This document shows positions 12,730 to 64,000 of a DNA stretch of 64,000 nt, piece after piece. A program made the position numbers and the translations under genes. Below the pieces are notes generated by a model. The model did not search any database, had not been told where the DNA came from, and was given only the letters and a program-made list of their open reading frames with translations. Source of the DNA: Planctomycetota bacterium (GTDB lineage Bacteria > Planctomycetota > JACOTG01); assembly GCA_016178505.1 (NCBI GenBank), contig JACOTG010000201.1:2413-66412 (forward strand), read 5' to 3'. Every line of letters starts with the position of its first letter. Within the stretch, counting starts at the first letter, position 1.

Positions 12730-13413
12730 ATGAGAATCCGCCGAGGAAACCCGGGTTTCACCATGGTCGAGCTGCTCGTCGTGATTGCGGTGATCGCGAC
12801 GATTTCGTCGATCATCTTGCCGAGTCTGCTCGGCGCACGGATGAGCGCCGCTGAGAGCGCGGCGATGGCGACCCTTCGCACCATCTGTTCAGCGGAGACG
12901 AGCTTCCACGAACGCCAGAGCGCCGACCGCGACGCTGATGGCGAGGGCGAGTACGGATTCCTCGCGGAAATGGCGGGCACCGTGATTCCGCCCCGGGCCG
13001 TGCAAGTCGTCAACCCGCCGATGCTCCCGAACTCCTTCCGCGTGATGAGCTCCGGGTACGTGAGCCGAACGGGCTATCTGTTCCGAGTGGTCCTCCCGGG
13101 CCTCGGCGGCGTTCCCGCCACCGAGGCGGCGACGGGAGGCGAGGACGCGGCGGCGCCGGTCGATTCGAACTTGGCCGAGGCGATCTGGGTCGCCTACTGC
13201 TGGCCGTCCGTCCGCGGCACGACGGGATTCCGAGCGTTCATGGTGAACCAGAGCGGTGCGATCATGCAGACCGACAACGTCGTCCAGGGCTACACCGGGT
13301 ACACGACGCCGATCACACCCGACGCCGCGTTTACGTCGCCGAACAACATCGCGTCGCCGGTCGCATTCAACGCTGCGGGCAACGACGGAGGAATCTGGAA
13401 GCCGGTGCGCTAG
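12730..13413 (+). CDS. prepilin-type N-terminal cleavage/methylation domain protein (type II secretion pseudopilin / type IV pilin-like)
   Basis: MRIRRGNPGFTMVELLVVIAVIATISSIILPSL is the classic prepilin peptidase motif (G|FT.E) followed by a hydrophobic helix. Start moved to the ATG with RBS (ORF track starts at GTG 12715). Confidence 0.65.
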   Translation: MRIRRGNPGFTMVELLVVIAVIATISSIILPSLLGARMSAAESAAMATLRTICSAETSFHERQSADRDADGEGEYGFLAEMAGTVIPPRAVQVVNPPMLPNSFRVMSSGYVSRTGYLFRVVLPGLGGVPATEAATGGEDAAAPVDSNLAEAIWVAYCWPSVRGTTGFRAFMVNQSGAIMQTDNVVQGYTGYTTPITPDAAFTSPNNIASPVAFNAAGNDGGIWKPVR

Positions 13414-43428: not shown

Positions 43429-45381
43429 ATGGCGCGTCTGATCCAACTTTCGGGGCCGTCGATCACGCCGGCGACCACCCGCAAGGCGGAGGTCACGTTC
43501 GGTCGCGATCGCACCAACGACTATCAACTCGGCGATCCGTCGACGTCGCGGACGCACGCCAAGATCGCGTTCGAGGGGGGGCGTTACACGCTCGTCGATC
43601 TCGGGAGCCGCAACGGGACCTATCACAACGGGGCGAAAGTGACGAAGGCCACGCCGTTGTCGAACGGCGACCTCGTGAAATTCGGCTACCCCGAATTCCG
43701 GTTCGAGTGCGCGACGCGCGAGCACGTGCCGGTGATCGAGCTCACGCGCGACAGCGCGACGGTGACCTCGATGCCGCAGGCGCCGCGGCCCGTGGCGTCC
43801 ACGCAAGAACGTTCGATCGGACCGGACGCCGCCGAGCTGACTGCGTTGCGCCGCGATCACGAGAAGCTGATGCTGCTTTACGAGATCGGCAAGGACGTGC
43901 ACACGGCGCTCGACGATCCAACCGCGCTCCTCAAGAAATCGCTCGAGATCGTGTTCAAGGTGCTCGACGCCGAACGGGCGTTCGTCGCCACGGTGGACCG
44001 CGACTCGGGCGCGCTCGTCTACGAGGAAGTGCGCGACCGCGACGGGAAAGACCTGGACGTCGAGAAGGAGATCCCGGTCAGCAAGACGATCACCCACGAC
44101 GTCGTGAAGAACAAGCGCGCGATCCTCACGCGCGATGCCGTGGCGGAGGAACAGTACCGGGGCATTCAGTCGATCGCGGACATGAAGCTGCTCTCGGCAA
44201 TGTGCGTTCCGCTGATGTATCGAGACCAGGCGCTCGGGATCCTCTATGCCGACAATCACGCGCAGCGAAATTGCTTTTCGCCTGCGGATCTCGAGTTCTT
44301 CGCATCGCTCGGACATCTCGTCGGCATCGCGCTCGGAAACGCGACGCTCTTCCGGCGCGAGCGCGAGGAGAAGGCCGCACTGATCGAGATCCTCGGCCAG
44401 GAAGTCGGCATGGTCGGGCGAAAGAGCGCGAGCATGCAGGCAGTCTTCGAGCAGATCGATCGCGTTGCGCCGAGCGAGGCAAACGTGATCATCACGGGCG
44501 AGTCGGGCGCGGGCAAAGAGCTCGTTGCACGCGCCATTCACAATCAATCGCATCGCAAGGCGAAGGCATTCGTCCCGGTCAACTGTGCGGCGATTCCGGA
44601 CACGCTCCTGGAGAGCGAGCTCTTCGGCTACGCGCCGAACTCGGGCATCTCGGGTGCGTCGCCGAAGGGCAAGCCGGGCAAGTTCGAGCTCGCGCACGGC
44701 GGGACGATCTTCCTCGACGAAATCGGCGACATGCCTCCGGCGACACAGGCGAAGATCTTGCGCGTCGTGCAGGATCGCCGCGTCGAGCGCCTGTCCGCGA
44801 CCGAACCGACCCAGGTCGACGTGCGCATCCTCTCGGCGACGAACCGAGACCTTTCGGAGGAGATCAAGGCCGGGCGCTTTCGGGAGGATCTCTTCTACCG
44901 GCTCAAGGTCGTGCAGGTCCACGTGCCGCCCTTGCGCGAACGCCGCGAGGACATTCCGGAGTTGGTCGAGTACTTCGTCCGCCGTGCGTGCGCGCGCAAC
45001 AACCGCTTCATCCGCGAGGTCCAGCAGAAGGCGATGGACCTCCTCCAGGGATATCCGTGGCCGGGCAACGTGCGAGAACTCGAGAACGCGATCGAAGCCG
45101 CGGTGGTCATGAGCGGCGGCCCGGTCGTCACGACCGACGTCCTGAGCGAACGGGTGCGGCAAGGACGCAAAGGAATCCCGTCACACTTGCCGACCTGGGA
45201 CGAAGAGGAGCGCCAGTATCTCCTTCGCGTGTTGCGTCACTGCAAGGGAGTGAAGTCGCACGCGGCCGACGTCACGGGGTTGGCCCGAAAGACGATCCAC
45301 GAGAAGATCAAGCAGCACAATCTGAAGCCGTCCGACTGGGGAGGCGCCGGGGACGACGAGCCCGAGGCCGGCTCGGATTGA
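43429..45381 (+). CDS. sigma-54-dependent transcriptional activator with N-terminal FHA domain and central GAF domain (FHA-GAF-AAA+-HTH)
   Basis: FHA: TFGRDRTNDYQLGDPSTSRTHAKIAFEGGRYTLVDLGSRNGTYHNG. GAF. Sigma-54 AAA+: IITGESGAGKELVARAIH, ESELFGY, ELENAIEAAV. C-terminal Fis-type HTH. Confidence 0.8.
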   Translation: MARLIQLSGPSITPATTRKAEVTFGRDRTNDYQLGDPSTSRTHAKIAFEGGRYTLVDLGSRNGTYHNGAKVTKATPLSNGDLVKFGYPEFRFECATREHVPVIELTRDSATVTSMPQAPRPVASTQERSIGPDAAELTALRRDHEKLMLLYEIGKDVHTALDDPTALLKKSLEIVFKVLDAERAFVATVDRDSGALVYEEVRDRDGKDLDVEKEIPVSKTITHDVVKNKRAILTRDAVAEEQYRGIQSIADMKLLSAMCVPLMYRDQALGILYADNHAQRNCFSPADLEFFASLGHLVGIALGNATLFRREREEKAALIEILGQEVGMVGRKSASMQAVFEQIDRVAPSEANVIITGESGAGKELVARAIHNQSHRKAKAFVPVNCAAIPDTLLESELFGYAPNSGISGASPKGKPGKFELAHGGTIFLDEIGDMPPATQAKILRVVQDRRVERLSATEPTQVDVRILSATNRDLSEEIKAGRFREDLFYRLKVVQVHVPPLRERREDIPELVEYFVRRACARNNRFIREVQQKAMDLLQGYPWPGNVRELENAIEAAVVMSGGPVVTTDVLSERVRQGRKGIPSHLPTWDEEERQYLLRVLRHCKGVKSHAADVTGLARKTIHEKIKQHNLKPSDWGGAGDDEPEAGSD

Positions 45382-46105: not shown

Positions 46106-49100
46106 TCAGTCGGTTTTCTTGGCGTGCGCGCTTCGGATCTCCGCGATGAACTCGTCGAACGAAACGCCGAAGACCGCCGGATTGATCTTGATCGCGAGCC
46201 GAGGAAGCAAGCCAGCGGGGAGCAGTAGATACTCCTGCACTCCTTCCAGTTGTCGGAGCGGCCACGTGAATCGATCGGGCGTTCCGAACAGATCGTTGCC
46301 GTCCGCATCGAATCGACCGTGAAACTGGAAGATCCCGTTTTGGAGTGCGATCGCTGCGCCGATCTTCGAGTAGCGGAATGCGCCGAGGAAGTTCGCAAGA
46401 TGGCCCTGCAGAGTCAGGCGTCCTTCGGTGCTCAGATACGGGATCTGTTGCAGCGCTTTCAGGCCGACGATCTGCTTCGAGCGACCGTCGACGGTTCGAA
46501 ACCGCGCGAGGAATCGCTCGAGCTCGCCGGCGCCGATCCAGACGTACGGGACGTCGGCCTCGACGATTCCACGGACTTCGCCGTAGTCGAAGATCGTGGA
46601 CACGCGCTCGAGATCGACGTCCCACGCGGTCAGCGAGGTCTTGAATCGAGCGAGAGAACTGAACGGATGGTCGCCGGAGACGTCGCCGATCTTCACGTGA
46701 CCGCCGAATGCGCTGACGATCGTGTCGCCGCGCACGCGCAGCTGCGCCACCGAAGCGGATACCGCCAGTTCTGTCGGCGTGAGCATCGTCGCGTCGAACG
46801 GATACTTCGCTGCGAGTTCGGGAATCATTTGCGAGACCCGAAGACCGGAGAATCCGACGTCGGCGACGAGCATCACGCGATTGGCGACGTCGTCGAGCGT
46901 GTCCTCGGCGCGGATGCCGACGCGCTGAAGGGAGATGTCTCCGCCGAATCCCGAAAGGCGGATCGGCTCGAGGGACGTCTCGTTCTGCCATCCGCCTTCG
47001 GCTGGGCGAAACACGAGCCGCAGATGATCGCCGTGCACGGAACCGACGCGAAGCGATGAGACCGCGACCGTCGCGGTGTCGGCGGGCGCGGGCACGCCAA
47101 TCCCGAGCGGGACGTCGGCGTCGAGCATTTCCAAGTCGAGCGATTCGCCGTGCACGGCGACGTCGTGGAGACGGACTCGGCCGTTCATCGTCGTCGGCGC
47201 GTCGTGACGCAGGCGTGCGTCGACGTTCGCCTCGGCGCGGCCCGAGACGCGCAGCGCGGCGATCTTGGGCTCGGAGTCCTGCACGTTCGGCACGACGAGC
47301 GCTCGAAACGCCGCATCGAAATCGGGAACCGATGCGTGCAGTGCGATCGCCGCGTCGGGGGCCGTTCGTAGCCCCGTCGCCGATCCGGAGACGTCGGCGT
47401 CGACGAGCCCACCGAACGAAACGCGCGACGAGCGAAGCTCGAGTCGATCGGCGTCGAGGTCGTAGCTGCCGCCGGAGTCGAGCGACAGGGCGGTGATCGT
47501 GGCGTCGATGCTGTACTTCTTCGCAACGCCGAAGAAGCCGGTCGCGTTCCCGCGAACCGCGAGGTCGAGCCGCCGGCGGTCGGAGAGCGTCCCGTCGATC
47601 GAGAGAGTAGCCGCGACGCCGTCGGCTTCGACGTCGGCGAGTGCGAAGCCGATGCCGCCGAGGGTGACGTCGCCCGCGAGCCGGTGAGCGTTCGCTTCGT
47701 CCGATCGGTCATAGGCCAGCCGACAACCGAGCGTCCCGCGCATGGACGGAACGACGTGCGCGAGGGAGACGTCGCTGGCCGTAAGCGTTCCCGTGCGGAC
47801 GGCGCGATCGACGATGCGAAGACGAGTTTCGAGGCGGCCGAGCGTCGGCGACGTGATCGTGACGCCGGCCTCGACGTCTCCCGCTGCCGAGGCACTGCGC
47901 GCGGTTGCGTCCACGGTCGCGTCGGCGGTGCCGCCGCCCAGTGCGGCCGCGAGCTCGACGCCGTGTACGTCGCCTTTCGCGGTCGCACGCCAGCCTCCGT
48001 CGACCGCGCGCGCGAGGTTGGCGACCAGCGATGCACGGCCGTTCACGAGCCGTGCGGGGGCTTCCGGCGAATTCATGCCCGTGAGATCGACGTGCATTTC
48101 CGCGGCGACGTCGCCGTCGCGAGACGTTTCGAATCGATCGACCCGAATCGTCGCGTGCCCGGCGACGGGCGAGCCCCAGGGCGCGAGGTCGGTCTCGATC
48201 GTCGTGGGACGCGTGAGAATCGCTCGGGCATCGGCGACGTTCAGTGAGACGGAGGCGTCGCGCAGCTCCACGAGGCGGATCTGGGCGCGTTCGATCCCGG
48301 CGCTGACGACCTCGTTAACCACGGACACGTCGGCCACGACGTCGACGGGTGTTCGACCGATCGGCTCCGGAAACGTCGCAGAATCGATGTGAATGCGAAC
48401 GTGACCCGCGACTCCAGAGCCTTCGAGGGTCGCATCCGCCTCGATCTCCGACGCGCCGCCGACGGTGCCCGAGGGCACGCCGAGTGCATCGAGGAGCTCG
48501 AGCGGTGGGTTCGCCGCACGCGCGACGAGATGGAGTCGTCGCTGCGCGTCGACCGCGATGTCGAGTCGACACGGGCCGATCGATCCGCTCAGGGTGGCGC
48601 TCGTGAGTCCCGACCCGCCGAGCGTCGCCTCCCCGCGAACGTCCGAAAGCCGAATGGTTCGTCCTCGCCTCACGAAATTCACGACGCCGCTCTCGACCTC
48701 GACCCGATCGACGCGTGCGCCAGCGTTGCCCGTCCTACCCTTGCCGAGGCGAGAGAAAACGTCCGCGAGGTCATGCGTGCGGTCGAGATCGACGGCGACT
48801 TCGAGTCCCCGTACGACGATGCTCTCCACGTGGGGCGAGCCGGACGCGAGGGTGCGGGTATCGAATCGAGCGTCCACGAGTTCCGCACGCGCGGCAATGG
48901 CGTCGCCTGAATTGCCGAGCTCGACGTTTCCGATCGATGCGCGGCCCGGCGAGACGCCGAGGCCGCGAAGCTCGCCGGCGACGCGAAGTCCGGTGGCGTC
49001 CGAGGCCCGTCGAAGCAGGGACGGCCAAGCGAACGTGCGCACGAGCTGCGGGAGGAAGGCCCACGCTGCGGTCAAGAGCGCGACGATTGCCGCCGCAGCG

Positions 49101-49138
49101 ACGATGGTCCGGCGAGGCCAGCGTCTCGTTTTGGGCAT
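46106..49138 (-). CDS. large AsmA/YdbH-family inner-membrane-anchored protein (1010 aa)
   Basis: N-terminal TM anchor RRTIVAAAAIVALLTAAWAF, long repetitive beta-rich body. Synteny with the ydbL-like gene immediately downstream, as in the E. coli ydbH-ynbE-ydbL operon. Confidence 0.55.
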   Translation of the reverse strand: MPKTRRWPRRTIVAAAAIVALLTAAWAFLPQLVRTFAWPSLLRRASDATGLRVAGELRGLGVSPGRASIGNVELGNSGDAIAARAELVDARFDTRTLASGSPHVESIVVRGLEVAVDLDRTHDLADVFSRLGKGRTGNAGARVDRVEVESGVVNFVRRGRTIRLSDVRGEATLGGSGLTSATLSGSIGPCRLDIAVDAQRRLHLVARAANPPLELLDALGVPSGTVGGASEIEADATLEGSGVAGHVRIHIDSATFPEPIGRTPVDVVADVSVVNEVVSAGIERAQIRLVELRDASVSLNVADARAILTRPTTIETDLAPWGSPVAGHATIRVDRFETSRDGDVAAEMHVDLTGMNSPEAPARLVNGRASLVANLARAVDGGWRATAKGDVHGVELAAALGGGTADATVDATARSASAAGDVEAGVTITSPTLGRLETRLRIVDRAVRTGTLTASDVSLAHVVPSMRGTLGCRLAYDRSDEANAHRLAGDVTLGGIGFALADVEADGVAATLSIDGTLSDRRRLDLAVRGNATGFFGVAKKYSIDATITALSLDSGGSYDLDADRLELRSSRVSFGGLVDADVSGSATGLRTAPDAAIALHASVPDFDAAFRALVVPNVQDSEPKIAALRVSGRAEANVDARLRHDAPTTMNGRVRLHDVAVHGESLDLEMLDADVPLGIGVPAPADTATVAVSSLRVGSVHGDHLRLVFRPAEGGWQNETSLEPIRLSGFGGDISLQRVGIRAEDTLDDVANRVMLVADVGFSGLRVSQMIPELAAKYPFDATMLTPTELAVSASVAQLRVRGDTIVSAFGGHVKIGDVSGDHPFSSLARFKTSLTAWDVDLERVSTIFDYGEVRGIVEADVPYVWIGAGELERFLARFRTVDGRSKQIVGLKALQQIPYLSTEGRLTLQGHLANFLGAFRYSKIGAAIALQNGIFQFHGRFDADGNDLFGTPDRFTWPLRQLEGVQEYLLLPAGLLPRLAIKINPAVFGVSFDEFIAEIRSAHAKKTD

Positions 49139-56436: not shown

Positions 56437-57420
56437 TTGACGCTCGAGCAACGAGGTCTTAAGATCGCCGCGACCTTGTTTGCAAATGCAGGAGACGCGT
56501 TCGTGACCCTCGCCAACTCGGCCGTTGTCCCCGGCCGTTTCCGAATCGTGGAGGGCGATCGGGGGCGGAAACTCCTCATCGTTCGCGACGGGTATGAGGA
56601 CGCGCTCGGGCCGCTGCTCGACCTTCCCTACGAGAATTTGCTGGCGCTGCCGTCGTCAGGACCGATCCGGCGATTCCGCGGGCGTGGTGCGCCGATCTCG
56701 TTCGCGATTCCAGGCCATCCAGGCGAGCGCGCGTTCGTTCGAACTTACCGCCGCGGCGGCTTGCTCCGGCACGTCCTCCCCAATTGTTTCCATGGAAGTG
56801 CGCGACCGATGCGCGAGCTCGGCGCGGTCGAGCGAGCGTGCGAGGGTGGGGTCGCGACGGCCCGGGCGCTGGCCCTGCTCGGCGAGCGCCGATGGTTCGG
56901 GTTCTTCTCGTGGCGGATCGCGCTCGTCGAGATCCCCGGGTCAATCGACCTCGAACGGTTCTTCCGAGCGCGCAGAACGGCCCCCGGAGCGCGTCGCGTC
57001 CGATCGGTGATTCGCGAGGCGTCGCGAACGGTTGCGGCGCTGCATGCCGCCGGCCTCGACCACGCGGATCTGCACTTGAAGAACTTGTTGGTCGACGAGA
57101 GCGGCGAGGGCCCAGTCTTCGTCGTCGACCTCGACAAGGCGACACACCACGATCCGCTTCCGCTCCGCCGTGTGGAGGCGAACCTGTTGCGGCTCGATCG
57201 CTCCGTCGAAAAGCAAAGGCGTCGAGGAGTGATTCTGTCGCGCTGTGATCGCTTGCGCTTCCTGCGCGATTACGGGAAGGCCGGCTTGCCTCCGCGCGCG
57301 GCCCTTCGACGATTGCTCCGTCGTCGGGCGCGCACGCTCTGGTGGCATCGGCTCGGGTGGTCGCTCTCGGAACTCGTCCGCGGCGGCGCATCGCACGCCG
57401 GGGTGGATGTCGATGCGTGA
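56437..57420 (+). CDS. lipopolysaccharide kinase family protein (Kdo/WaaP-like)
   Basis: Catalytic loop LDHADLHLKNLLVD and FVVDLDKA typical of the Kdo / LPS core kinase family. TTG start as in the ORF track. Confidence 0.55.
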   Translation: MTLEQRGLKIAATLFANAGDAFVTLANSAVVPGRFRIVEGDRGRKLLIVRDGYEDALGPLLDLPYENLLALPSSGPIRRFRGRGAPISFAIPGHPGERAFVRTYRRGGLLRHVLPNCFHGSARPMRELGAVERACEGGVATARALALLGERRWFGFFSWRIALVEIPGSIDLERFFRARRTAPGARRVRSVIREASRTVAALHAAGLDHADLHLKNLLVDESGEGPVFVVDLDKATHHDPLPLRRVEANLLRLDRSVEKQRRRGVILSRCDRLRFLRDYGKAGLPPRAALRRLLRRRARTLWWHRLGWSLSELVRGGASHAGVDVDA

Positions 57421-57467
57421 GTCGCTCGTCGCTTCGAGCGGGGCCGGAAGTTCGGCGGGACTCGTGC

Positions 57468-58244
57468 ATGGCTGATCGCCCACGCATCACCGCATGCATC
57501 ATCACCCTGAACGAAGAGGCCAACATCCAGGAGTGCCTCGAGAGCATCAAGTGGGTCGACGAAATCGTGGTCATCGACTCCGAGAGCACGGACCGCACGG
57601 TCGAGATCTGCGACAGATACGGCGCGCGGGTGGAACGTCGGCCGTTCCCCGGTCACATCGAGCAGAAGAACCATGCCGTGCGTTCCGCCACGAGCCCGTG
57701 GGTACTGTGCATCGATGCCGACGAGCGGCTATCGCCCGCTCTGTCGACGGAGATCCAACGCGAGCTGGAGACGAACGGTGATACGCTCGACGGATACTAC
57801 ATGCCCCGCCACACGTTCTATCTCGGTCGATGGATCGACCACGGTGGATGGTATCCGGACTATAAGCTGCGCCTCTTCAAAAAGGAGAAAGGTGCGTGGG
57901 GCGGGACCAATCCGCACGACCGGGTCGTGCTCGAAGGCGAGACGAGAGTGCTGAGAAGCGATCTCTTGCACTTCACGTACCGTGACATCTCGCACCACGT
58001 GCGCACGATCAACTCGTTCACGACGATCATGGCCGAAGAGCGACACCGGCAAGGTCGGCGCTTTGGTCTGCCGGTTCTGGTGCTGAAACCGTTCTTCAAG
58101 TTCTTCAAGATGTACGTTTGGCAGAAAGGCTTCTTGGACGGGCTCCCCGGTTTCGTGATCGCAGTCAGCGGAGCGTACTACGTGTTCCTCGCGGACGCGA
58201 AGTTGTGGGAGATCCAACGGCTCGGCGAGCGAGCGAAATCGTGA
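57468..58244 (+). CDS. glycosyltransferase family 2 (LPS core WaaE/KdtX-like)
   Basis: ITACIITLNEEANIQECLESIKWVDEIVVIDSESTDRT...CIDADERL. Highly characteristic of WaaE-like LPS core glucosyltransferases. Confidence 0.7.
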   Translation: MADRPRITACIITLNEEANIQECLESIKWVDEIVVIDSESTDRTVEICDRYGARVERRPFPGHIEQKNHAVRSATSPWVLCIDADERLSPALSTEIQRELETNGDTLDGYYMPRHTFYLGRWIDHGGWYPDYKLRLFKKEKGAWGGTNPHDRVVLEGETRVLRSDLLHFTYRDISHHVRTINSFTTIMAEERHRQGRRFGLPVLVLKPFFKFFKMYVWQKGFLDGLPGFVIAVSGAYYVFLADAKLWEIQRLGERAKS

Positions 58245-59950
58245 GCGAGGCGACGGCGATGGTCGACGTTCCGATCGACATCGAAGGGACGCGATGCCGC
58301 GCCGTCGACGTGATTCGCGATGGTCTCGCGTGGCGCGTCGACGCCGATTGGCGCGACGTCGTCGTCCGCGATGTCATCGACCGGCTGCCGGCAATTCGCG
58401 AGGGCGCCGCGCTGGGCACCGTCGTCAAGCAGAACCTCATGCGCACCGTTTATCGCATCGCGGTGGAGGGTGCGCCCGGTCGTTGCGTCTATCTCAAAGT
58501 TCATCGCGTTCCGACTTTGATCGAGAAGCTGAAGTCGCTCGTCCGTGCGAGCCGCGCGGAAACCGAATGGCGGATGATGACGATCTTCCGCGAGTCGGGG
58601 CTTCCGACCGCACGCCCGCTTGCGGTTGCCGAGCGCCGCGCAGGAGCCGTGCTTCGCGACGCGTACTTCGTGACGGAGGGGATCGCCGACGCGACCGATC
58701 TGGTGCCGTACTTGAATCGCGCATTCCCCGTGCGATTGCGCGGTGGCGTGCGCGGGGCAAAGCGCGCTTTGCTCGCCCGGCTGGCTCGTCTCGTTCGTTC
58801 GATGCACGAGCGCGGGATCTACTACAGCGATCTCCACAGCGGGAACATCCTCGTCACCGGCGATCCGCCGGACGAGGCCCGCATCCACTTCATCGATCTC
58901 CACACGGGCCATCGTGTCTCGAAGCTCGGCGTCAGGAGGCGCCTTCGGAATCTGGCGCGGTTGAGCCACTCGCTGCTCGAGGCGACGACTCGGACCGACC
59001 GACTGCGATTCTTCCTCGATTACGCGGCCGGCGATGCGGTCCTCGGACCGGCGCTGCGTTCGGCATTTCGGCGATTGGAGGCCCGTGTGGCGCGGCTCGA
59101 GCGGCGCCGGCTGCGAAGCCGTGCGCTGCGCTGCGTCATGGAGAGCAGTCGATTCACGCGGCTGCGCAGTGACGGACTTCGCGGGTTCGCCCAGCGACGT
59201 TTTTCTGCTGGGGTTTGGCGCGAGGTGATCACCGGACATGCTCGGGCGCTTCGAGGAGACGTTGGCAGGAAGTTCAAGGACGGCCGCAGCACTCGCGTGA
59301 CGGGATTCGAAACGTCCGCGGGCGAATGTGTGTGCGTCAAGGAATACCGATGCCCGTCGCCGCTGGATCGACTGAAGCGCGCGCTCGGGTATCGAAAGGC
59401 ATTGCGTTCATGGCGCGCGGGAAACGCGCTTCTCGTCCGCGGAATCGAGGTCGCCGAGCCGCTCGCGTTCCTGCGGGCGGCGGGTCCCGGCGGCGCGGAT
59501 TTGCTCGTCATGCGCGACGTGTCTGATCTCTCGCGACTCGATCATTTCGTTTTCGAGCGCATGGCGGGGACGAGGAATCGAGAGCGGCGCCGGCTGGAAC
59601 GCGAGATGGCGACCTTCGTCGCCGACCTGCATCGTCGCGGCGCTTACCACAATGATCTGAAGGCGTGCAACGTGCTCGTCGCCGGAACCGACGCAGCGCG
59701 GAGGTTCCTGCTGATCGATTTCGACGGCGCGCGCACCGTGCGCGGAGGGGTGAGCGTGCGCCGGCGCATCAAGAACCTCGCGCAGCTGTCGGCGAGCATT
59801 CCGACGTTCGTGTCGCTATCGGAGCGGTTTCGGTTCCTTCGCGACTACTCGCAGGGCCGAATGTCGCGAGCCGAGCGGCGGCGGTACTACGTGGGTGTGA
59901 TTCGCGCGTGCCGGCGCAAGACGACCGTCGGAGAGAGGCCGATCGAGTGA
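58243..59950 (+). CDS. tandem two-domain lipopolysaccharide-kinase-like protein (two Kdo/WaaP-type kinase domains)
   Basis: First domain YYSDLHSGNILV...FIDLHTG. Second domain AYHNDLKACNVLVAG...LIDFDGAR. GTGA overlap with the upstream GT2 stop. Confidence 0.55.
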
Positions 59951-59999
59951 TCGAGGTCTTGCGAAAGATCGACGTGGCGAAGCGGTGGATCGAGGTCAC

Positions 60000-61208
60000 A
60001 TGAGAATTCTGCATCTCTTCTCGAACTGGAAGTGGACCGGGCCTGCGGAGCCTGCCCTGAATCTCGCCGCAGAGCTTCGCCGCGCCGGGCACGACGTGCT
60101 CTTCGCGTGCGGACGACCGGTGAAGGGATGTGAGAACTTCGTCGCACGCGAGGCGCGCGCGCGGGGAATCGAGCCGATTCTCCAGTTTCGACTGAACAAG
60201 CATCGACGTCCGCTCGACAACCTCCACGATCAGCGCCGATTGCCGAAATTCATCGAACGAGAACAGATCGACATCGTTCATGCCCATCTCGACAACGATC
60301 ACCTGCTCGCGGCGCGCGCCGTGAGATCGCTTTCGCGTGCGGTTCCGGTGGTGCGCACGTACTACGGCGGCGAGCCGCCGTCGCGTCGATCGATCACGCG
60401 AAAGCTCCTCGAGGGCTCGAGCGACGCCATCATCGTGATCTCGGACCGCGTCCGCGACGCGCTCGTGGCCGAGCTCGGAGTGCCCGTCGGGACTCTCTTC
60501 CGGCTCGAGGGGACGGTCGATCTCGCGCGATTCGACCCGGCACGACGAGTGAAGTCGATCCGCGAGCGGCTCGACGTCGCGGGAGATGCGCCCTGTTTCG
60601 GCATCGTCGCTCGCATGCAGCGACACCGTCGGTTCGACCTCTTGCTCGACACGATCAGCCGAGTCGTGGCGCGCGAGCCTCGTGCGCGATTCGTGTTCGT
60701 CGGTCGCGGAACGCGGATGGAAGAAGTCCTCCGAAAGCCGGCCCGAGAGCGGTCAATCGAAGCGTTTCTGAGATTCCCCGGATACCTGGAGGGGGACGAG
60801 TTCGTGGCGGCCCTCGCGTCGATGGATGCGCTCCTGTTCACGGTGCCCGGTTCGGACGGATCGTGCCGTGCCGTCCGGGAAGCGATGGCGATGGGGCTTC
60901 CCATCGTTGCGTCGAAGCGCGGCATCCTCCCGGAGCTCGTGAAGGACGACGAGACCGGGTTTTCGCTCGACGAGGAGCCGGGGGCGTGGGCATCGGCGGT
61001 GCTGCGCCTCGCGTCGGATCGCGCGCTTCGATCCCGGATTTCGCAGGGCGCTCGGCGACATGCGGCCCGGTTCGCGATCGCCGACCATGCTCGCGAGGTC
61101 GCACGAATCTATCGGTTCCTGTCGCGTCGCGTCGCGTCGAGGGCGCGACTGGGTTCGACGGAGTCGGGCGTCGCCGCCGTCAATTGGAAGCGGAGGAGTC
61201 GCGTCTGA
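60000..61208 (+). CDS. glycosyltransferase family 4 (GT-B, group 1)
   Basis: MRILHLFSNWKWTGP N-terminus and C-terminal E-x7-E-like region (AVREAMAMGLPIVASKRGILPELV). Confidence 0.7.
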   Translation: MRILHLFSNWKWTGPAEPALNLAAELRRAGHDVLFACGRPVKGCENFVAREARARGIEPILQFRLNKHRRPLDNLHDQRRLPKFIEREQIDIVHAHLDNDHLLAARAVRSLSRAVPVVRTYYGGEPPSRRSITRKLLEGSSDAIIVISDRVRDALVAELGVPVGTLFRLEGTVDLARFDPARRVKSIRERLDVAGDAPCFGIVARMQRHRRFDLLLDTISRVVAREPRARFVFVGRGTRMEEVLRKPARERSIEAFLRFPGYLEGDEFVAALASMDALLFTVPGSDGSCRAVREAMAMGLPIVASKRGILPELVKDDETGFSLDEEPGAWASAVLRLASDRALRSRISQGARRHAARFAIADHAREVARIYRFLSRRVASRARLGSTESGVAAVNWKRRSRV

Positions 61209-61267
61209 CGCGAGGTTTCGACGGCCCGGAGGTTGCGGTGGGGACGCGAGTCGGTTTGTCGTCGCAT

Positions 61268-61296
61268 TGACTTCGACAAGGACCCGCCATAGGATG
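61268..61296 (+). promoter_or_regulatory. sigma-70-like promoter TTGACT-N17-TAGGAT upstream of the GluRS-like gene
   Basis: ttgacttcgacaaggacccgccataggat read by eye. Confidence 0.35.
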
Positions 61297-61382
61297 CGGG
61301 CCTCACGGCATTCGGAGCAGGCGGTGCTCCGAGGCCCACGAAAGCGACTCGCTCAGACGTTCTCTTGGGGATTCCGAGGCCG

Positions 61383-62846
61383 ATGAACACCAGCGGCTCC
61401 GATGGCGTGCGGGTCGGCATCGCACCCGTCGTCACGCCGCCGATCGCCGTCTCGGGACTTCGCGCTGCGCTGTTCGCGTGGCTTTACGTTCGCGCGCACG
61501 GCGGCACGCTCGTGCTTCGCGTGGCGGACGCGCAAGGCCCGAGGATTCGCGACGAGCTGACCTCGCTCTTGCTGGAGAACCTGCGCTGGATCGGAATCGA
61601 TTGGCAGGAAGGGCCCGATGTCGGCGGGCCGCATGCCCCGTATCTGACGTCTCGCCGCGTCGATCACTATCGGGACGGCGCGCAACGGCTCCTCGACGAC
61701 GGGATCGCGTTTCGCTGCTTCTGCACTCCAGAGGAGATCGAGGCCCGAGCGCAGAAGGAGAAGCGCGGTCGGAGCTCGCAGAAGCCGACGGGGCATCGGT
61801 GCGCTTCGATTTCAGCGGCTGAAGCCGAGCGCCGCGCTCGCGCGGGAGCGCGAACGTTCGTCCGACTTCGCGGCGACGCGTGCGGGCGTGTGGCCTCGGA
61901 CGACGTCGTGCGCGGGCGAATCTTCGTCGAGCCGCCAGCGGAGGCGTTTCTGGTCGATCCCGACGGCGCGCCGTTCGACGGATTCGCGTCCGCGATCGAC
62001 GAGGTCACGATGCGGATCGACGTGTCCTTTCGCGACGACGAATCCATGCCCGAAACGGCGGTTCAGATTCGGGTGGCACGCGCGCTGGGTCTGTCCGTGC
62101 CGCGAATCGCGCACGTGGGGGAGATCGTGGGACCCGATGGAGCGAGATTCGGCAAACGACACGGTGCGGCGACGGCTCAGTCGTTCCGGCGACTTGGCTA
62201 CCACCCGAGGGCGCTCGCGAATTTCCTCGTGGCGTTGTCGTGGTCGCATCCCGACGGACTCGAGCGATTCGATCCGGCGACTCTCGATCGAGATTTCGCG
62301 CGGTCGCCGATTCGCCGCGAGCCCGCCGTCTTCGATTTCAAGGCGCTGAATCGCATCTCAGCGCAGACGATTCGCGAGGAAAGTCCTGACTTCTTGCTCG
62401 ATCGCGTCTACCCCTACCTCCTCGAAGGAGGATTCATCGACGAAGGAGGCGACCGAGCACGTTTGCGAGAGGTGGTTGCCGTTTGTCGCGAGCACTTGAG
62501 CTGCCTTTCGGAGATCGTGAAGTACGCGGACATCTTCTTTGGCGAGACGTTCATCGAGGTCAAAGAACGCAAACTCCTCAAGCGCGAGTCGTCCCGGCAG
62601 ATCCTCGTCGCCTTCCGGGAGCGCGTCGAAAGGATGAGCGATCTCGATGCGGAAGGATTTCGTCGGACCATCACTGAAGTGCAAGGCGCGACGCGGGCGA
62701 CTCGCGAAACGGTCTTGCTCACGCTGCGAGTCGCGCTCACCGGGCAGACCGCGGGGCCCGACGTGTCGGACGTGGCGCCGGTCCTCGGTCCGCGCGCCTG
62801 TGCCGAAAAAGTCGAGCGGGCCCTTCACCTAGCCCATCAGTCGTAG
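61383..62846 (+). CDS. glutamyl-tRNA synthetase paralogue with degenerate HIGH and KMSKS motifs (full length incl. anticodon-binding domain)
   Basis: Colinear with GluRS (GIAPVVTPPIAVSGLRAALFAWLYVRAHGGTLVLRVADAQ vs E. coli [40 protein letters not shown]). HIGH is replaced by IAVS, KLSKR by RFGKR. C-terminal LRVALTG motif retained. Confidence 0.6.
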   Translation: MNTSGSDGVRVGIAPVVTPPIAVSGLRAALFAWLYVRAHGGTLVLRVADAQGPRIRDELTSLLLENLRWIGIDWQEGPDVGGPHAPYLTSRRVDHYRDGAQRLLDDGIAFRCFCTPEEIEARAQKEKRGRSSQKPTGHRCASISAAEAERRARAGARTFVRLRGDACGRVASDDVVRGRIFVEPPAEAFLVDPDGAPFDGFASAIDEVTMRIDVSFRDDESMPETAVQIRVARALGLSVPRIAHVGEIVGPDGARFGKRHGAATAQSFRRLGYHPRALANFLVALSWSHPDGLERFDPATLDRDFARSPIRREPAVFDFKALNRISAQTIREESPDFLLDRVYPYLLEGGFIDEGGDRARLREVVAVCREHLSCLSEIVKYADIFFGETFIEVKERKLLKRESSRQILVAFRERVERMSDLDAEGFRRTITEVQGATRATRETVLLTLRVALTGQTAGPDVSDVAPVLGPRACAEKVERALHLAHQS

Positions 62847-62915
62847 TAGATATTTCGCTTTTCCCCGGCCGGCGCATCCTGCCGGCAGCAGCCCGAAGGC
62901 GAAGGAGACCACGGC

Positions 62916-64000
62916 GTGGCGATCCAGCTCTACAACACGCTCACCAAGCAGAAAGAGCCGTTCGTCCCGCTCGAGCCCGGCAAAGTCCGCATGTACAACT
63001 GCGGACCGACGGTCTACAACTTCGCGCACGTCGGCAACTTTCGGTCGTTCCTGCTCGCGGATCTGCTTCGTCGATACTTCGACTACCGCGGATTCGACGT
63101 CCGCCAAGTCATGAACATCACCGACGTCGGTCACTTGCTCGCGGACGCCGATGCGGGCGTCGACAAAGTCGAGGAGGAAGCCCGCAAACAGAAAAAGGAC
63201 CCTTACGCGATCGTCGCGTTCTACCTCGATGCGTTCATGCGAGACGTCGAGGCGTTGAATCTGCGGCCGGCTCACCACTATCCGCGTGCGACCGAGCACG
63301 TCCCGGAGATGCTGGCGCTCGTCGAGAAGCTCTTGAAAGGCGGGTACGCATACGTCGCGAAGGGTGCCGTCTACTTCGACGTTTCTCGGTTCCCGGCGTA
63401 CGGTCGGCTGTCAGGCAACTCGCTCGAGGCGCTCAAGGCCGGTGCGCGCATCGAGATCAACCCAGACAAGAAGCAACCTTACGATTTTGCCCTGTGGAAG
63501 CAGGATCCATTGCACCTGATGCAATGGGATTCGCCGTGGGGTCGTGGCTTCCCCGGGTGGCACATCGAGTGCAGCGCGATGGCGATGAAGTATCTCGGCG
63601 AATCGATCGACGTGCACACCGGGGGAGAAGACAACATCTTCCCGCACCACGAATGCGAGATCGCGCAATCGGAAGCCGCCACGGGGCGACCGTTCGTCAA
63701 GTACTGGGTGCACACACGACACCTGCTCGTCGAAGGCGAGAAGATGTCGAAGTCAGTCGGGAACTTCTACACGATCCGCGATCTCGTGAAGATGGGGTAC
63801 AGCGGCAAGGCAATTCGATACCTGCTGCTGTCGACGCATTATCGTCAGAACGCAAACCTCACGTTCGACGGCCTCGAGGCCGCGAAGAAGACGGTCGATC
63901 GGATCAATGCGTTCGCGCAGAACCTCCGCGACGTTTCGGCGGAGAAGCCCAACCCCGAGTTGATGGATACCATCAAGCGTGCTCGCTCCCAATTCGTCGA
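62916..64000 (+). CDS. cysS: cysteinyl-tRNA synthetase (3' partial, runs off window)
   Basis: YNCGPTVYNFAHVGNFRSFLLADLL (HIGH motif), Zn-binding Cys. RBS aaggag 10 nt upstream of the GTG. Confidence 0.85.
   Translation, partial: MAIQLYNTLTKQKEPFVPLEPGKVRMYNCGPTVYNFAHVGNFRSFLLADLLRRYFDYRGFDVRQVMNITDVGHLLADADAGVDKVEEEARKQKKDPYAIVAFYLDAFMRDVEALNLRPAHHYPRATEHVPEMLALVEKLLKGGYAYVAKGAVYFDVSRFPAYGRLSGNSLEALKAGARIEINPDKKQPYDFALWKQDPLHLMQWDSPWGRGFPGWHIECSAMAMKYLGESIDVHTGGEDNIFPHHECEIAQSEAATGRPFVKYWVHTRHLLVEGEKMSKSVGNFYTIRDLVKMGYSGKAIRYLLLSTHYRQNANLTFDGLEAAKKTVDRINAFAQNLRDVSAEKPNPELMDTIKRARSQFV

What the first reader, a model, noticed from the sequence alone, without database searches (positions are those of the whole stretch)
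61383..62846. Full-length GluRS-like protein with ablated HIGH and KMSKS motifs, directly upstream of cysS
The protein aligns along its whole length with glutamyl-tRNA synthetase, including the C-terminal anticodon-binding LRVALTG region. The class-I signature residues are replaced ([10 protein letters not shown] becomes VVTPPIAVSG; KLSKR becomes RFGKR). This should abolish ATP binding and aminoacylation. It is a candidate pseudo-synthetase with a regulatory or tRNA-binding role, or a highly divergent enzyme. It has its own promoter-like TTGACT-N17-TAGGAT.
Basis: partly seen in the sequence, partly recalled or inferred. Interest (0 to 1): 0.65.

Follow-up and report, generated by a model that had tools for sequence, protein, structure and literature searches.

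The report
Catalytically dead GluRS paralog before cysS
A rare group of Planctomycetota keeps a full-length copy of glutamyl-tRNA synthetase that has lost the residues needed to charge tRNA, yet is preserved by selection and appears to be transcribed together with the cysteinyl-tRNA synthetase gene, so it most likely does a non-enzymatic job.

Summary
ORF 61383-62846 (+) encodes a 487-aa protein with the complete bacterial GluRS architecture and fold. HIGH is gone (PSPTGxLHVGG becomes PVVTPPIAVSG). So are most glutamate- and ATP-site residues: T. thermophilus R5, S9, G12, H15, G17, E41, T43, D44 and Y187. KMSKS is only partly degenerate (RFGKR keeps the second Lys and the Arg).

It scores below NCBI's curated gltX cut-off (276 against 290 bits; canonical enzymes score 480-550), and NCBI calls it a hypothetical protein.

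It is not a decaying pseudogene. Intact orthologs at 91, 78, 65 and 39% identity were found; the three seen with flanking DNA have the same gene order and the same promoter-like site. dN/dS is about 0.14-0.22.

The constraint pattern is inverted relative to real GluRS. The catalytic half drifts and the first half of the anticodon-binding domain is the best conserved part.

The family is tiny: three clusters at 50% identity among 1.84 billion representatives. I found no published description.

The most likely role is a non-catalytic tRNA-binding or partner protein expressed with CysRS. I could not test whether the genome also has a canonical gltX.

The parts
61267..61295 (+). Sigma-70-like promoter TTGACT-N17-TAGGAT for the pseudo-gltX/cysS pair
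   Evidence: It is the only promoter-like site in 60900-63100, against 0.1 expected in shuffles. The same TTGAC[T/A/G]-16/17-TA[G/C]GAT lies at the equivalent place upstream of the orthologs in L003, L001 and L086.
61296..61382 (+). Leader of about 87 nt with a hairpin at 61307-61337 (core stem 61311-61319 / 61325-61333, loop GGCGG)
   Evidence: RNAalifold on three orthologous leaders gives 20 pairs, 7 of them with compensatory changes, and the GGCGG loop is invariant. No Rfam family matches. Only three sequences were available, so this is suggestive only.
61383..62846 (+). Pseudo-GluRS gene, 487 aa (NCBI MBI1852422.1 / MBI3847334.1, annotated 'hypothetical protein HYR85_18940')
   Evidence: PF00749 and PF19269 match. 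TIGR00464 scores 276.3 bits, below the 289.95 cut-off. The AF2 model has pLDDT 92.6. Foldseek TM-scores to GluRS structures 2o5r, 1j09 and 4gri are 0.82-0.85.
61425..61457 (+). Degenerate HIGH region, residues 15-25 PVVTPPIAVSG (canonical PSPTGxLHVGG)
   Evidence: Alignments. Mapping to T. thermophilus GluRS gives S9 to V16, G12 to P19, H15 to A22 and G17 to S24. R5 becomes G12 just upstream (61416-61418).
61518..61535 (+). RVADAQ in place of RIEDTD (Tth E41 to A48, T43 to A50, D44 to Q51)
62145..62159 (+). Partly degenerate KMSKS loop, R255-F-G-K-R259 (canonical K-L/I-S-K-R)
   Evidence: The equivalents of K246 and R247 are kept, and S245 becomes G. The distant ortholog P0241 has PYSRR here.
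62328..62597 (+). Family-specific conservation hot spot, residues 316-405 (end of the catalytic half and first half of the anticodon-binding domain). It includes His371 (62493-62495) at the position of Tth Arg358.
   Evidence: The window protein and P0241 are 53-63% identical here, where canonical GluRS pairs are only 19-36% identical. His is present in all four family members and in 0 of 59 canonical enzymes.
62358..62843 (+). Anticodon-binding domain (residues 326-487) with LRVALTG...GP retained
   Evidence: PF19269 match. R449, T453, G454 and P459 are kept.
62847..62915 (+). 69-nt spacer with no terminator-like site, and AAGGAG upstream of the cysS start
   Evidence: No terminator-like or promoter-like site lies in the spacer. 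The spacer is only 10 nt in L086.
62916..64000 (+). cysS (canonical CysRS; runs off the window end)
   Evidence: PF01406 at 353 bits. The full-length protein from L084 scores 491.9 bits against the TIGR00435 cut-off of 340. HVGN and KMSKS can be read directly in the sequence.

Best explanation
The gene encodes a glutamyl-tRNA-synthetase-derived pseudoenzyme.

Shown:
- It keeps the whole five-domain GluRS fold.
- It has lost HIGH, the glutamate-binding Arg5 and Tyr187, and Glu41, Thr43 and Asp44.
- It is kept intact under purifying selection in a small Planctomycetota clade.
- It always lies directly upstream of a canonical cysS, behind a conserved promoter-like site.

Inferred from established GluRS enzymology:
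- It can neither form Glu-AMP nor charge tRNA, so a separate canonical GluRS must exist elsewhere in the genome.

Inferred from the pattern of constraint:
- Its selected function resides in the anticodon-binding domain, especially residues about 316-405, and in the preserved scaffold.
- Most likely it binds a tRNA (tRNA-Glu or tRNA-Gln-like) or another RNA without acylating it, and acts as a non-catalytic tRNA-binding or regulatory factor co-expressed with CysRS.
For: Architecture and fold.

Catalytic losses:
- 26 of 95 columns conserved in canonical GluRS are lost in all three close members, and 55 structural or tRNA-side columns are kept.
- Mapping onto 1J09 numbering, verified: R5 to G, S9 to V, G12 to P, H15 to A, G17 to S, E41 to A, T43 to A, D44 to Q, Y187 to D.
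- PMC2978374 states that the Arg5/Arg205/Asp195 network is strictly conserved and principally responsible for glutamate recognition, and that Tyr187 contacts the substrate.
- PMC3927822 states that HIGH is H-phi-G-X across bacterial GluRS.

Family scores: members score 264-280 bits against TIGR00464, canonical enzymes 480-550.

Selection:
- dN/dS is 0.14 and 0.22.
- dN is about 2.2-2.4 times that of the adjacent CysRS, but lower than that of RbfA.
- ORFs are intact in independent assemblies, and three independent loci (L001, L003, L086) share the window's gene order.
- GroEL on the most distant contig (P0129, 166,382 bp, the same length as the L086 contig) is 78% identical to the window's.

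Inverted constraint:
- Canonical pairs are 52.5% identical in the catalytic part and 28.7% in the anticodon-binding domain.
- The window protein and P0241 are 36.3% and 45.1% identical in the same parts.
- The hot spot is residues 316-405.
- His replaces the base-36 reader Arg358 in all four members.

Operon:
- The promoter-like site is conserved.
- There is no terminator-like site in the spacer.
- The gap to cysS is 10 nt in L086.
Against: - No biochemical data exist. Loss of activity is inferred from motifs.
- The second Lys and the Arg of KMSKS, Arg205 and the Asp42 equivalent are retained, so residual nucleotide or ligand binding cannot be excluded.
- A canonical gltX in the same genome was not demonstrated.
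- tRNA binding is inferred only from retention of the domain. The same conservation pattern would fit a protein-protein interface.
- Only four full-length family sequences exist, so the conservation statistics are thin.
- dS is near saturation (about 1.0-1.3), so dN/dS values are approximate.
- The AF2 confidence leans on canonical homologs in the alignment.
Confidence: 0.55

Rival explanations
1. It is a non-catalytic protein partner or scaffold rather than an RNA binder. The dead GluRS would dock onto another protein and modulate it, as HisZ does for HisG. Candidates are the co-transcribed CysRS, GluTR or GatCAB. The conserved domain-4 patch would then be a protein interface.
For: - Strict, clade-specific pairing with cysS: other Planctomycetota with CysRS about 59% identical have no gltX next to cysS.
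- A 10-nt gap in L086 suggests linked expression.
- CysRS of this clade has a clade-specific C-terminal tail, SGPGGGTV(S/Q)LR.
- The conserved hot spot lies where canonical GluRS are least conserved.
Against: - No interaction data and no complex model could be obtained.
- The canonical tRNA-side residues (R449, T453, G454, P459, the three Zn-site Cys, the DxVRG region) are retained.
- The catalytic half has become more positively charged than canonical ones: +4 to +6 against a mean of -5.8. Both points fit RNA binding at least as well.
Confidence: 0.2
2. It is a neo-functionalised enzyme. The remodelled pocket would catalyse a different ATP- or tRNA-dependent ligation, as GluQRS or MshC do relative to their parent synthetases.
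For: - Within the close subfamily the new residues are conserved: VVTPPIAVSG, VVTPTIAVSG and VVSPPLGVSG, RVADAQ, and RFGKR at 65-78% identity.
- Arg205, the Asp42 equivalent and the Lys/Arg of KMSKS are retained.
Against: - The substituted pocket residues are not conserved between the two subfamilies. Comparing the close members with P0241: R5 is G against R, S9 is V against A, G12 is P against Q, H15 is A or G against S, G17 is S against R, E41 is A against G, D44 is Q against D, Y187 is D or E against A, and KMSKS is RFGKR against PYSRR.
- The catalytic half of the window protein is no closer to P0241 (36%) than to canonical GluRS (35%).
- A shared new chemistry would demand shared catalytic residues.
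- The HIGH His that stabilises the adenylation transition state in class I enzymes is absent in all members.
Confidence: 0.12
3. It is still a working GluRS, either the housekeeping enzyme or an auxiliary one, with an unorthodox active site.
For: - The architecture is full-length.
- It sits in a translation-gene neighbourhood (cysS, and rbfA-infB-nusA opposite).
- No other GluRS is found in the 64-kb window.
- A second gltX was not demonstrated.
Against: - Residues reported as strictly conserved and principal for glutamate recognition are lost: Arg5, plus Tyr187, and the HIGH His.
- Scores are about 270 bits against about 500 for real enzymes.
- It evolves about 2.3 times faster than CysRS.
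- The active-site positions vary between orthologs. This is incompatible with an essential catalytic site.
Confidence: 0.04
4. It is a gene remnant on its way to loss, with no selected function.
For: - Its rate is accelerated relative to its neighbours.
- Catalytic residues are lost.
- NCBI labels it 'hypothetical'.
Against: - Intact 480-488-aa ORFs with no frameshifts or stops are found in independent assemblies. They span 39-91% identity and share gene order.
- dN/dS is 0.14-0.22, similar to bona fide genes next door.
- The promoter-like site is conserved.
- The 316-405 segment is strongly conserved.
Confidence: 0.04

Closest known systems
Canonical bacterial glutamyl-tRNA synthetase (GluRS; TIGR00464; e.g. 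T. thermophilus 1J09, T. maritima 2o5r)
   Same: Same length, same Pfam domains (PF00749 and PF19269) and same fold (TM 0.82-0.85). The WxEGPDxGGxxxPYxxSxR segment, three Zn-site Cys, Arg205, the Lys/Arg of KMSKS and the LRxALTG...GP anticodon-domain motif are retained.
   Different: HIGH is absent. Arg5, Ser9, Glu41, Thr43, Asp44 and Tyr187 are replaced. It scores below the curated cut-off (276 against 290 bits; real enzymes 480-550). The conservation pattern is inverted, with the anticodon-binding domain more conserved than the catalytic core. His replaces Arg358.
GluRS2 paralogs (H. pylori tRNA-Gln-specific GluRS2; T. maritima/Acidobacteria-type GluRS2 described as inactive in PMC3927822)
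   Same: A second full-length GluRS-like gene with diverged or reportedly absent charging activity.
   Different: Those paralogs keep an intact HIGH (H-phi-G-N or H-phi-G-G) according to PMC3927822. This family has none. That survey recorded no Planctomycetes genome with two GluRS copies.
GluQRS / YadB (tRNA-Asp queuosine glutamyl transferase)
   Same: A GluRS-derived paralog with a non-translational role. It is the only GluRS paralog listed in the 2022 review PMC9437257.
   Different: GluQRS is about 300 aa and lacks the anticodon-binding domain. It keeps an active adenylation site. The window protein scores 98-106 bits against GluQRS cut-offs of 250-277, and it has the full anticodon-binding domain.
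aaRS-derived non-catalytic regulators such as HisZ (a HisRS paralog that regulates HisG)
   Same: A synthetase fold retained under selection after loss of aminoacylation, and encoded beside a functionally related gene (concept from PMC9437257, and from my own knowledge).
   Different: HisZ is class II, and its partner and ligand are known. Here no partner or ligand is known, and the parent enzyme is the class I GluRS.

Membership tests
Bacterial glutamate--tRNA ligase (GluRS, EC 6.1.1.17; TIGR00464) | Catalytic domain PF00749 plus the bacterial alpha-helical anticodon-binding domain PF19269, about 470-500 aa | tested here: met
   PF00749 at E 2e-43 and PF19269 at E 2.5e-19, both matched over their full length. 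Fold TM 0.82-0.85 to GluRS structures.
Bacterial glutamate--tRNA ligase (GluRS, EC 6.1.1.17; TIGR00464) | HIGH signature (H-phi-G-X) | tested here: not met
   AVSG (A22, S24) lies at the aligned position. 58 of 59 canonical sequences have His there. The motif definition is from PMC3927822.
Bacterial glutamate--tRNA ligase (GluRS, EC 6.1.1.17; TIGR00464) | KMSKS-type loop (K-L/I-S-K-R) | tested here: inconclusive
   The window has RFGKR. The second Lys and the Arg are kept, and Ser becomes Gly. An Arg at the first position is also seen in 15 of 59 canonical enzymes. The ortholog P0241 has PYSRR, with both Lys lost.
Bacterial glutamate--tRNA ligase (GluRS, EC 6.1.1.17; TIGR00464) | Glutamate-recognition network Arg5/Arg205/Asp195, plus Tyr187 (T. 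thermophilus numbering) | tested here: not met
   Arg5 becomes Gly12 and Tyr187 becomes Asp199. Arg205 is kept as Arg217 and Asp195 becomes Glu207. The role of these residues is from PMC2978374.
Bacterial glutamate--tRNA ligase (GluRS, EC 6.1.1.17; TIGR00464) | Score at or above NCBIfam's curated equivalog cut-off (289.95 bits) | tested here: not met
   276.3 bits for the window protein. P0001, P0002 and P0241 score 264, 268 and 280. Canonical controls score 480-550.
Bacterial glutamate--tRNA ligase (GluRS, EC 6.1.1.17; TIGR00464) | Glutamylation of tRNA-Glu or tRNA-Gln | not testable with these tools
   This requires ATP-PPi exchange and aminoacylation assays.
GluQRS (YadB; TIGR03838) | About 300 aa, catalytic domain only with no anticodon-binding domain, and a score above the cut-off | tested here: not met
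   The protein has the full PF19269 domain. It scores 97.6 bits against the 276.7 cut-off.
GluRS2 (tRNA-Gln-specific or 'inactive' duplicated GluRS) | A second GluRS copy that retains H-phi-G-N or H-phi-G-G | tested here: not met
   The HIGH His is absent. The motif description is from PMC3927822. Whether this is a second copy in its genome could not be tested.
aaRS-derived pseudoenzymes (catalytically deficient synthetase homologs kept by selection) | Loss of conserved catalytic motifs in an otherwise intact enzyme fold | tested here: met
aaRS-derived pseudoenzymes (catalytically deficient synthetase homologs kept by selection) | Evidence of retention by purifying selection | tested here: met
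   dN/dS is 0.14-0.22 (dS near saturation). Intact orthologs share gene order down to 39% identity.
aaRS-derived pseudoenzymes (catalytically deficient synthetase homologs kept by selection) | An active paralog present in the same genome | not testable with these tools
   There is no second GluRS in the 64-kb window. The rest of GCA_016200105.1 could not be searched. Two candidate canonical GluRS (P0069, P0013) belong to other samples.

The most novel reading that the evidence does not exclude
The dead GluRS is a dedicated regulatory subunit of a two-gene module with CysRS. It would use its repurposed anticodon-binding domain (invariant His at the base-36 reader position, conserved 316-405 patch) to bind a specific tRNA or the conserved leader hairpin of its own mRNA. 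In this way it would couple CysRS expression or activity to the state of the tRNA-Glu/Gln pool. That would make it a protein analogue of T-box or ThrRS-operator control, built from a class I synthetase pseudoenzyme.
Probability: 0.1. Interest if true: 0.75.

Novelty: new variant of a known kind. Interest (0 to 1): 0.5.

Why it matters
Synthetase-derived proteins that have stopped charging tRNA (HisZ, GluQRS, PoxA, MshC and others) have repeatedly revealed new biology.

I found no described full-length bacterial GluRS that has lost HIGH and the glutamate site yet is kept by selection. This rests on four literature searches and on the 2022 review of aaRS paralogs.

If it binds tRNA without charging it, it offers a natural case of a class I synthetase turned into an RNA-binding or regulatory factor. 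It also has a clear genomic partner (cysS) to test against.

There is a practical point for annotation. The protein scores just below the gltX cut-off and carries both GluRS Pfam domains. Homology-based pipelines could therefore count it as the organism's GluRS. JGI does name the ortholog P0001 'glutamyl-tRNA synthetase'. That would give a wrong picture of the aaRS complement of these MAGs.

The limits are that the clade is very small and uncultured, and the function is unknown.

Tried and rejected
1. Second canonical gltX.
- tblastn of the window found only the one GluRS-like gene.
- I looked up two canonical GluRS whose source tags resembled those of the family's MAGs (P0069, P0013). Both come from other samples.
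- The tools cannot enumerate a named assembly, so this test remains open.

2. More family members.
- The genome-contig scan returned only canonical GluRS, at 39% identity or less on the best aligned segment.
- The metagenome-contig scan with a family profile also returned only canonical GluRS, at 47% or less (35% or less for near-full-length matches).
- The exhaustive HMMER search added only P0241.

3. An ancestral gltX-cysS operon in the phylum. Three other Planctomycetota cysS loci have no gltX and no shared gene order. The pairing is therefore clade-specific.

4. Origin of the paralog. The best canonical relatives come from unrelated phyla (Gelria, Saganbacteria, Deferribacterales). No donor or sister lineage can be named, which is consistent with a long branch.

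5. RNA elements. Rfam found nothing at gathering thresholds in the window and nothing at E up to 1 in the leader. There are no tRNA genes in the window or in the four related loci.

6. Defence-system membership. There were no PADLOC hits.

7. Literature. Four searches found no full-length HIGH-less GluRS.

8. A shifted HIGH or KMSKS. Rejected; see the observation check.

9. Minus-strand ORFs overlapping the gene. I treated these as high-GC artefacts, because homology and conservation support the plus-strand frame.
Full report
**What is at the coordinates**

The ORF runs from ATG 61383 to the stop at 62844-62846 on the + strand and encodes 487 aa; an in-frame TTG lies at 61365.

- It matches the class I Glu/Gln catalytic domain PF00749 (residues 9-323, E 2e-43) and the bacterial GluRS anticodon-binding domain PF19269 (residues 339-481, E 2.5e-19), both over their whole length.
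- It matches NCBIfam TIGR00464 gltX_bact over profile positions 2-464 of 470. The score is 276.3 bits, below the curated cut-off of 289.95.
- It aligns end to end with 22 solved bacterial GluRS, the best being T. maritima GluRS1 2o5r at E 7e-66.
- An AlphaFold2 model built on 62 sequences is confident (pLDDT 92.6, pTM 0.88). This confidence partly reflects the canonical homologs in the alignment.
- The model superposes on GluRS structures 2o5r, 1j09 and 4gri with TM 0.82-0.85.

**The motifs**

All alignments agree. PSPTGxLHVGG is PVVTPPIAVSG (residues 15-25), RIEDTD is RVADAQ, and KLSKR is RFGKR.

I verified T. thermophilus numbering against chain 1J09_A and mapped functional residues:

| T. 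thermophilus residue | Window protein |
|---|---|
| Arg5 | Gly12 |
| Ser9 | Val16 |
| Gly12 | Pro19 |
| His15 | Ala22 |
| Gly17 | Ser24 |
| Glu41 | Ala48 |
| Thr43 | Ala50 |
| Asp44 | Gln51 |
| Tyr187 | Asp199 |
| Trp209 | Ser221 |
| Arg205 | Arg217 (kept) |
| Lys246 | Lys258 (kept) |
| Arg247 | Arg259 (kept) |

PMC2978374 describes the Arg5/Arg205/Asp195 network as strictly conserved and principally responsible for glutamate recognition, with Tyr187 contacting the substrate. PMC3927822 describes HIGH as H-phi-G-X throughout bacterial GluRS.

Of 95 alignment columns that are at least 85% conserved in 59 canonical GluRS, 26 are lost in all three close family members. The lost positions include the substrate-site residues listed above. 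55 columns are kept, including three Zn-site Cys, the WxEGPDxGG...PY segment and the LRxALTG...GP motif of the anticodon-binding domain.

HIGH and the glutamate site are therefore gone. KMSKS is only partly degenerate. There is no shifted HIGH: 'AVSG' sits at the N-terminus of the first helix in the model.

**Where the window comes from, and the family**

The window's GroEL is 100% identical to proteins of two NCBI 'Planctomycetes bacterium' MAGs. The gene lies on GCA_016200105.1 contig JACQFJ010000083.1 (107,470 bp). NCBI annotates it as 'hypothetical protein HYR85_18940'.

In 5.8 billion proteins only three close relatives appear:

- P0003, 91% identical, partial;
- P0001, 78%;
- P0002, 65%.

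The next hits are canonical GluRS at 34% or less. An exhaustive HMMER search of 1.84 billion cluster representatives adds one intermediate, P0241 (391 bits, 39% identity). After that, scores drop to 308 bits or less for canonical enzymes.

P0241 also lacks HIGH (PAATQHLSVRQ), has RFGDAD, and has PYSRR for KMSKS. All four full-length members score 264-280 bits on TIGR00464, whereas canonical controls score 480-550. Scans of the genome and metagenome contig collections found no further members.

**It is a maintained gene, not a remnant**

Gene order is conserved in the window/L084, L003, L001 and L086. It is:

- LPS-kinase-like and glycosyltransferase genes;
- then pseudo-GluRS and cysS;
- then, on the opposite strand, rbfA-DUF503-infB-nusA;
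- then a histidine kinase and a sigma-54 response regulator.

The window contig and the contig of the most distant ortholog differ by 22% in GroEL (P0129 at 78%, on a 166,382-bp contig, the same length as the L086 contig).

Nei-Gojobori estimates are:

| Comparison | pseudo-GluRS dN/dS | CysRS dN/dS |
|---|---|---|
| window vs L003 | 0.14 | 0.07 |
| window vs L001 | 0.22 | 0.10 |

dS is about 1 and near saturation, so the ratios are approximate. The relative dN is more robust. The pseudo-GluRS evolves 2.1-2.4 times faster than CysRS, but slower than RbfA.

**Inverted constraint**

Canonical GluRS pairs are 52.5% identical in the catalytic part and 28.7% in the anticodon-binding domain. The window protein and P0241 are 36.3% identical in the catalytic part, no more than either is to canonical enzymes (33-35%). 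They are 45.1% identical in the anticodon-binding domain.

A sliding window places the family-specific peak at residues 316-405. Identity there is 53-63%, against 19-36% among canonical enzymes.

The position of Tth Arg358 is His in all four members and in none of 59 canonical sequences. Arg358 is the residue whose mutation converts a discriminating GluRS into a non-discriminating one (PMC2978374).

The active-site substitutions differ between the two subfamilies. This argues against a shared new catalytic chemistry.

**Expression context**

TTGACT-N17-TAGGAT (61267-61295) is the only promoter-like site in 60900-63100. An equivalent TTGAC[T/A/G]-16/17-TA[G/C]GAT lies upstream of all three orthologs examined.

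No terminator-like or promoter-like site lies in the 69-nt spacer before cysS, and the spacer is 10 nt in L086. cysS (GTG 62916) is canonical. Co-transcription is therefore likely, but it is inferred.

Three other Planctomycetota whose CysRS is about 59% identical have no gltX beside cysS and no shared gene order. The pairing is specific to this clade.

**Interpretation**

The best-supported reading is a GluRS-derived pseudoenzyme. The fold, the loss of catalytic residues, selection and the operon-like context are shown. Inability to aminoacylate, and hence the need for a separate canonical GluRS, is inferred from established enzymology.

A function residing in the anticodon-binding domain is inferred from the conservation pattern. 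I take this function to be most likely tRNA or RNA binding without charging.

Four rivals are discussed with their refuting tests:

- a protein-partner role, for instance with CysRS, whose clade-specific C-terminal tail is noted;
- a neo-enzyme;
- a still-active GluRS;
- a decaying gene.

**What I could not do**

I could not search the rest of the source genome for a canonical gltX. The window has no second copy, and two candidates proved to come from other samples. I could not model complexes or inspect the pocket geometry.

**Comparison with what is known, and novelty**

The 2022 review of aaRS duplications lists only GluQRS/YadB as a GluRS paralog with a new function (PMC9437257). GluRS2 paralogs, including those proposed to be inactive, keep HIGH (PMC3927822). 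Four literature searches found no full-length HIGH-less GluRS.

I therefore classify this as a new variant of a known kind, the aaRS-derived pseudoenzymes. Interest is moderate: it is clearly real and undescribed, but it is confined to a very small uncultured clade and its function is unknown.

Noticed in passing
window 61307-61337 (leader of the pseudo-gltX/cysS transcript): A hairpin with an invariant GGCGG loop lies directly after the conserved promoter. 7 of 20 predicted pairs in the consensus leader structure show compensatory changes across three orthologous leaders. No Rfam family matches.
   Followed up: partly
L084 about 12935-12967 (just beyond the window end); also L003 and L001: CysRS of this clade carries a clade-specific C-terminal tail, SGPGGGTV(S/Q)LR. 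It is absent from 7 other Planctomycetota CysRS and shortened in L086. It could be a docking peptide, but this is untested.
   Followed up: no
window 4926-10292 (+): A 1788-aa single ORF fuses a Ser/Thr protein kinase, AAA_16, TPR repeats, GAF, a sigma-54 activator AAA+ domain and a Fis-type HTH. This is an unusually long kinase-to-enhancer-binding-protein fusion.
   Followed up: no
window 46106-49138 (-): A 1010-aa ORF with coding-like GC3 and no Pfam match at E up to 1e-5.
   Followed up: no
window 56437-61208 (+): Two Kdo/WaaP-family LPS-kinase-like genes (one with a duplicated kinase domain), a GT2 and a GT4 glycosyltransferase precede the pseudo-gltX. Most of this cluster recurs upstream of the gene in the other loci. 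A separate promoter-like site lies between the cluster and the pseudo-gltX, so a functional link is doubtful.
   Followed up: partly
window 43429-45381 (+) and L086 4032-5930: An FHA-GAF-sigma54-activator-HTH regulator is found near groEL both in the window and on the distant L086 contig. Gene order in this clade is thus conserved beyond the locus studied.
   Followed up: no
databases (not a window coordinate): JGI names the ortholog P0001 'glutamyl-tRNA synthetase', while NCBI names the window protein 'hypothetical protein'. Automatic aaRS inventories of these MAGs will disagree.
   Followed up: yes
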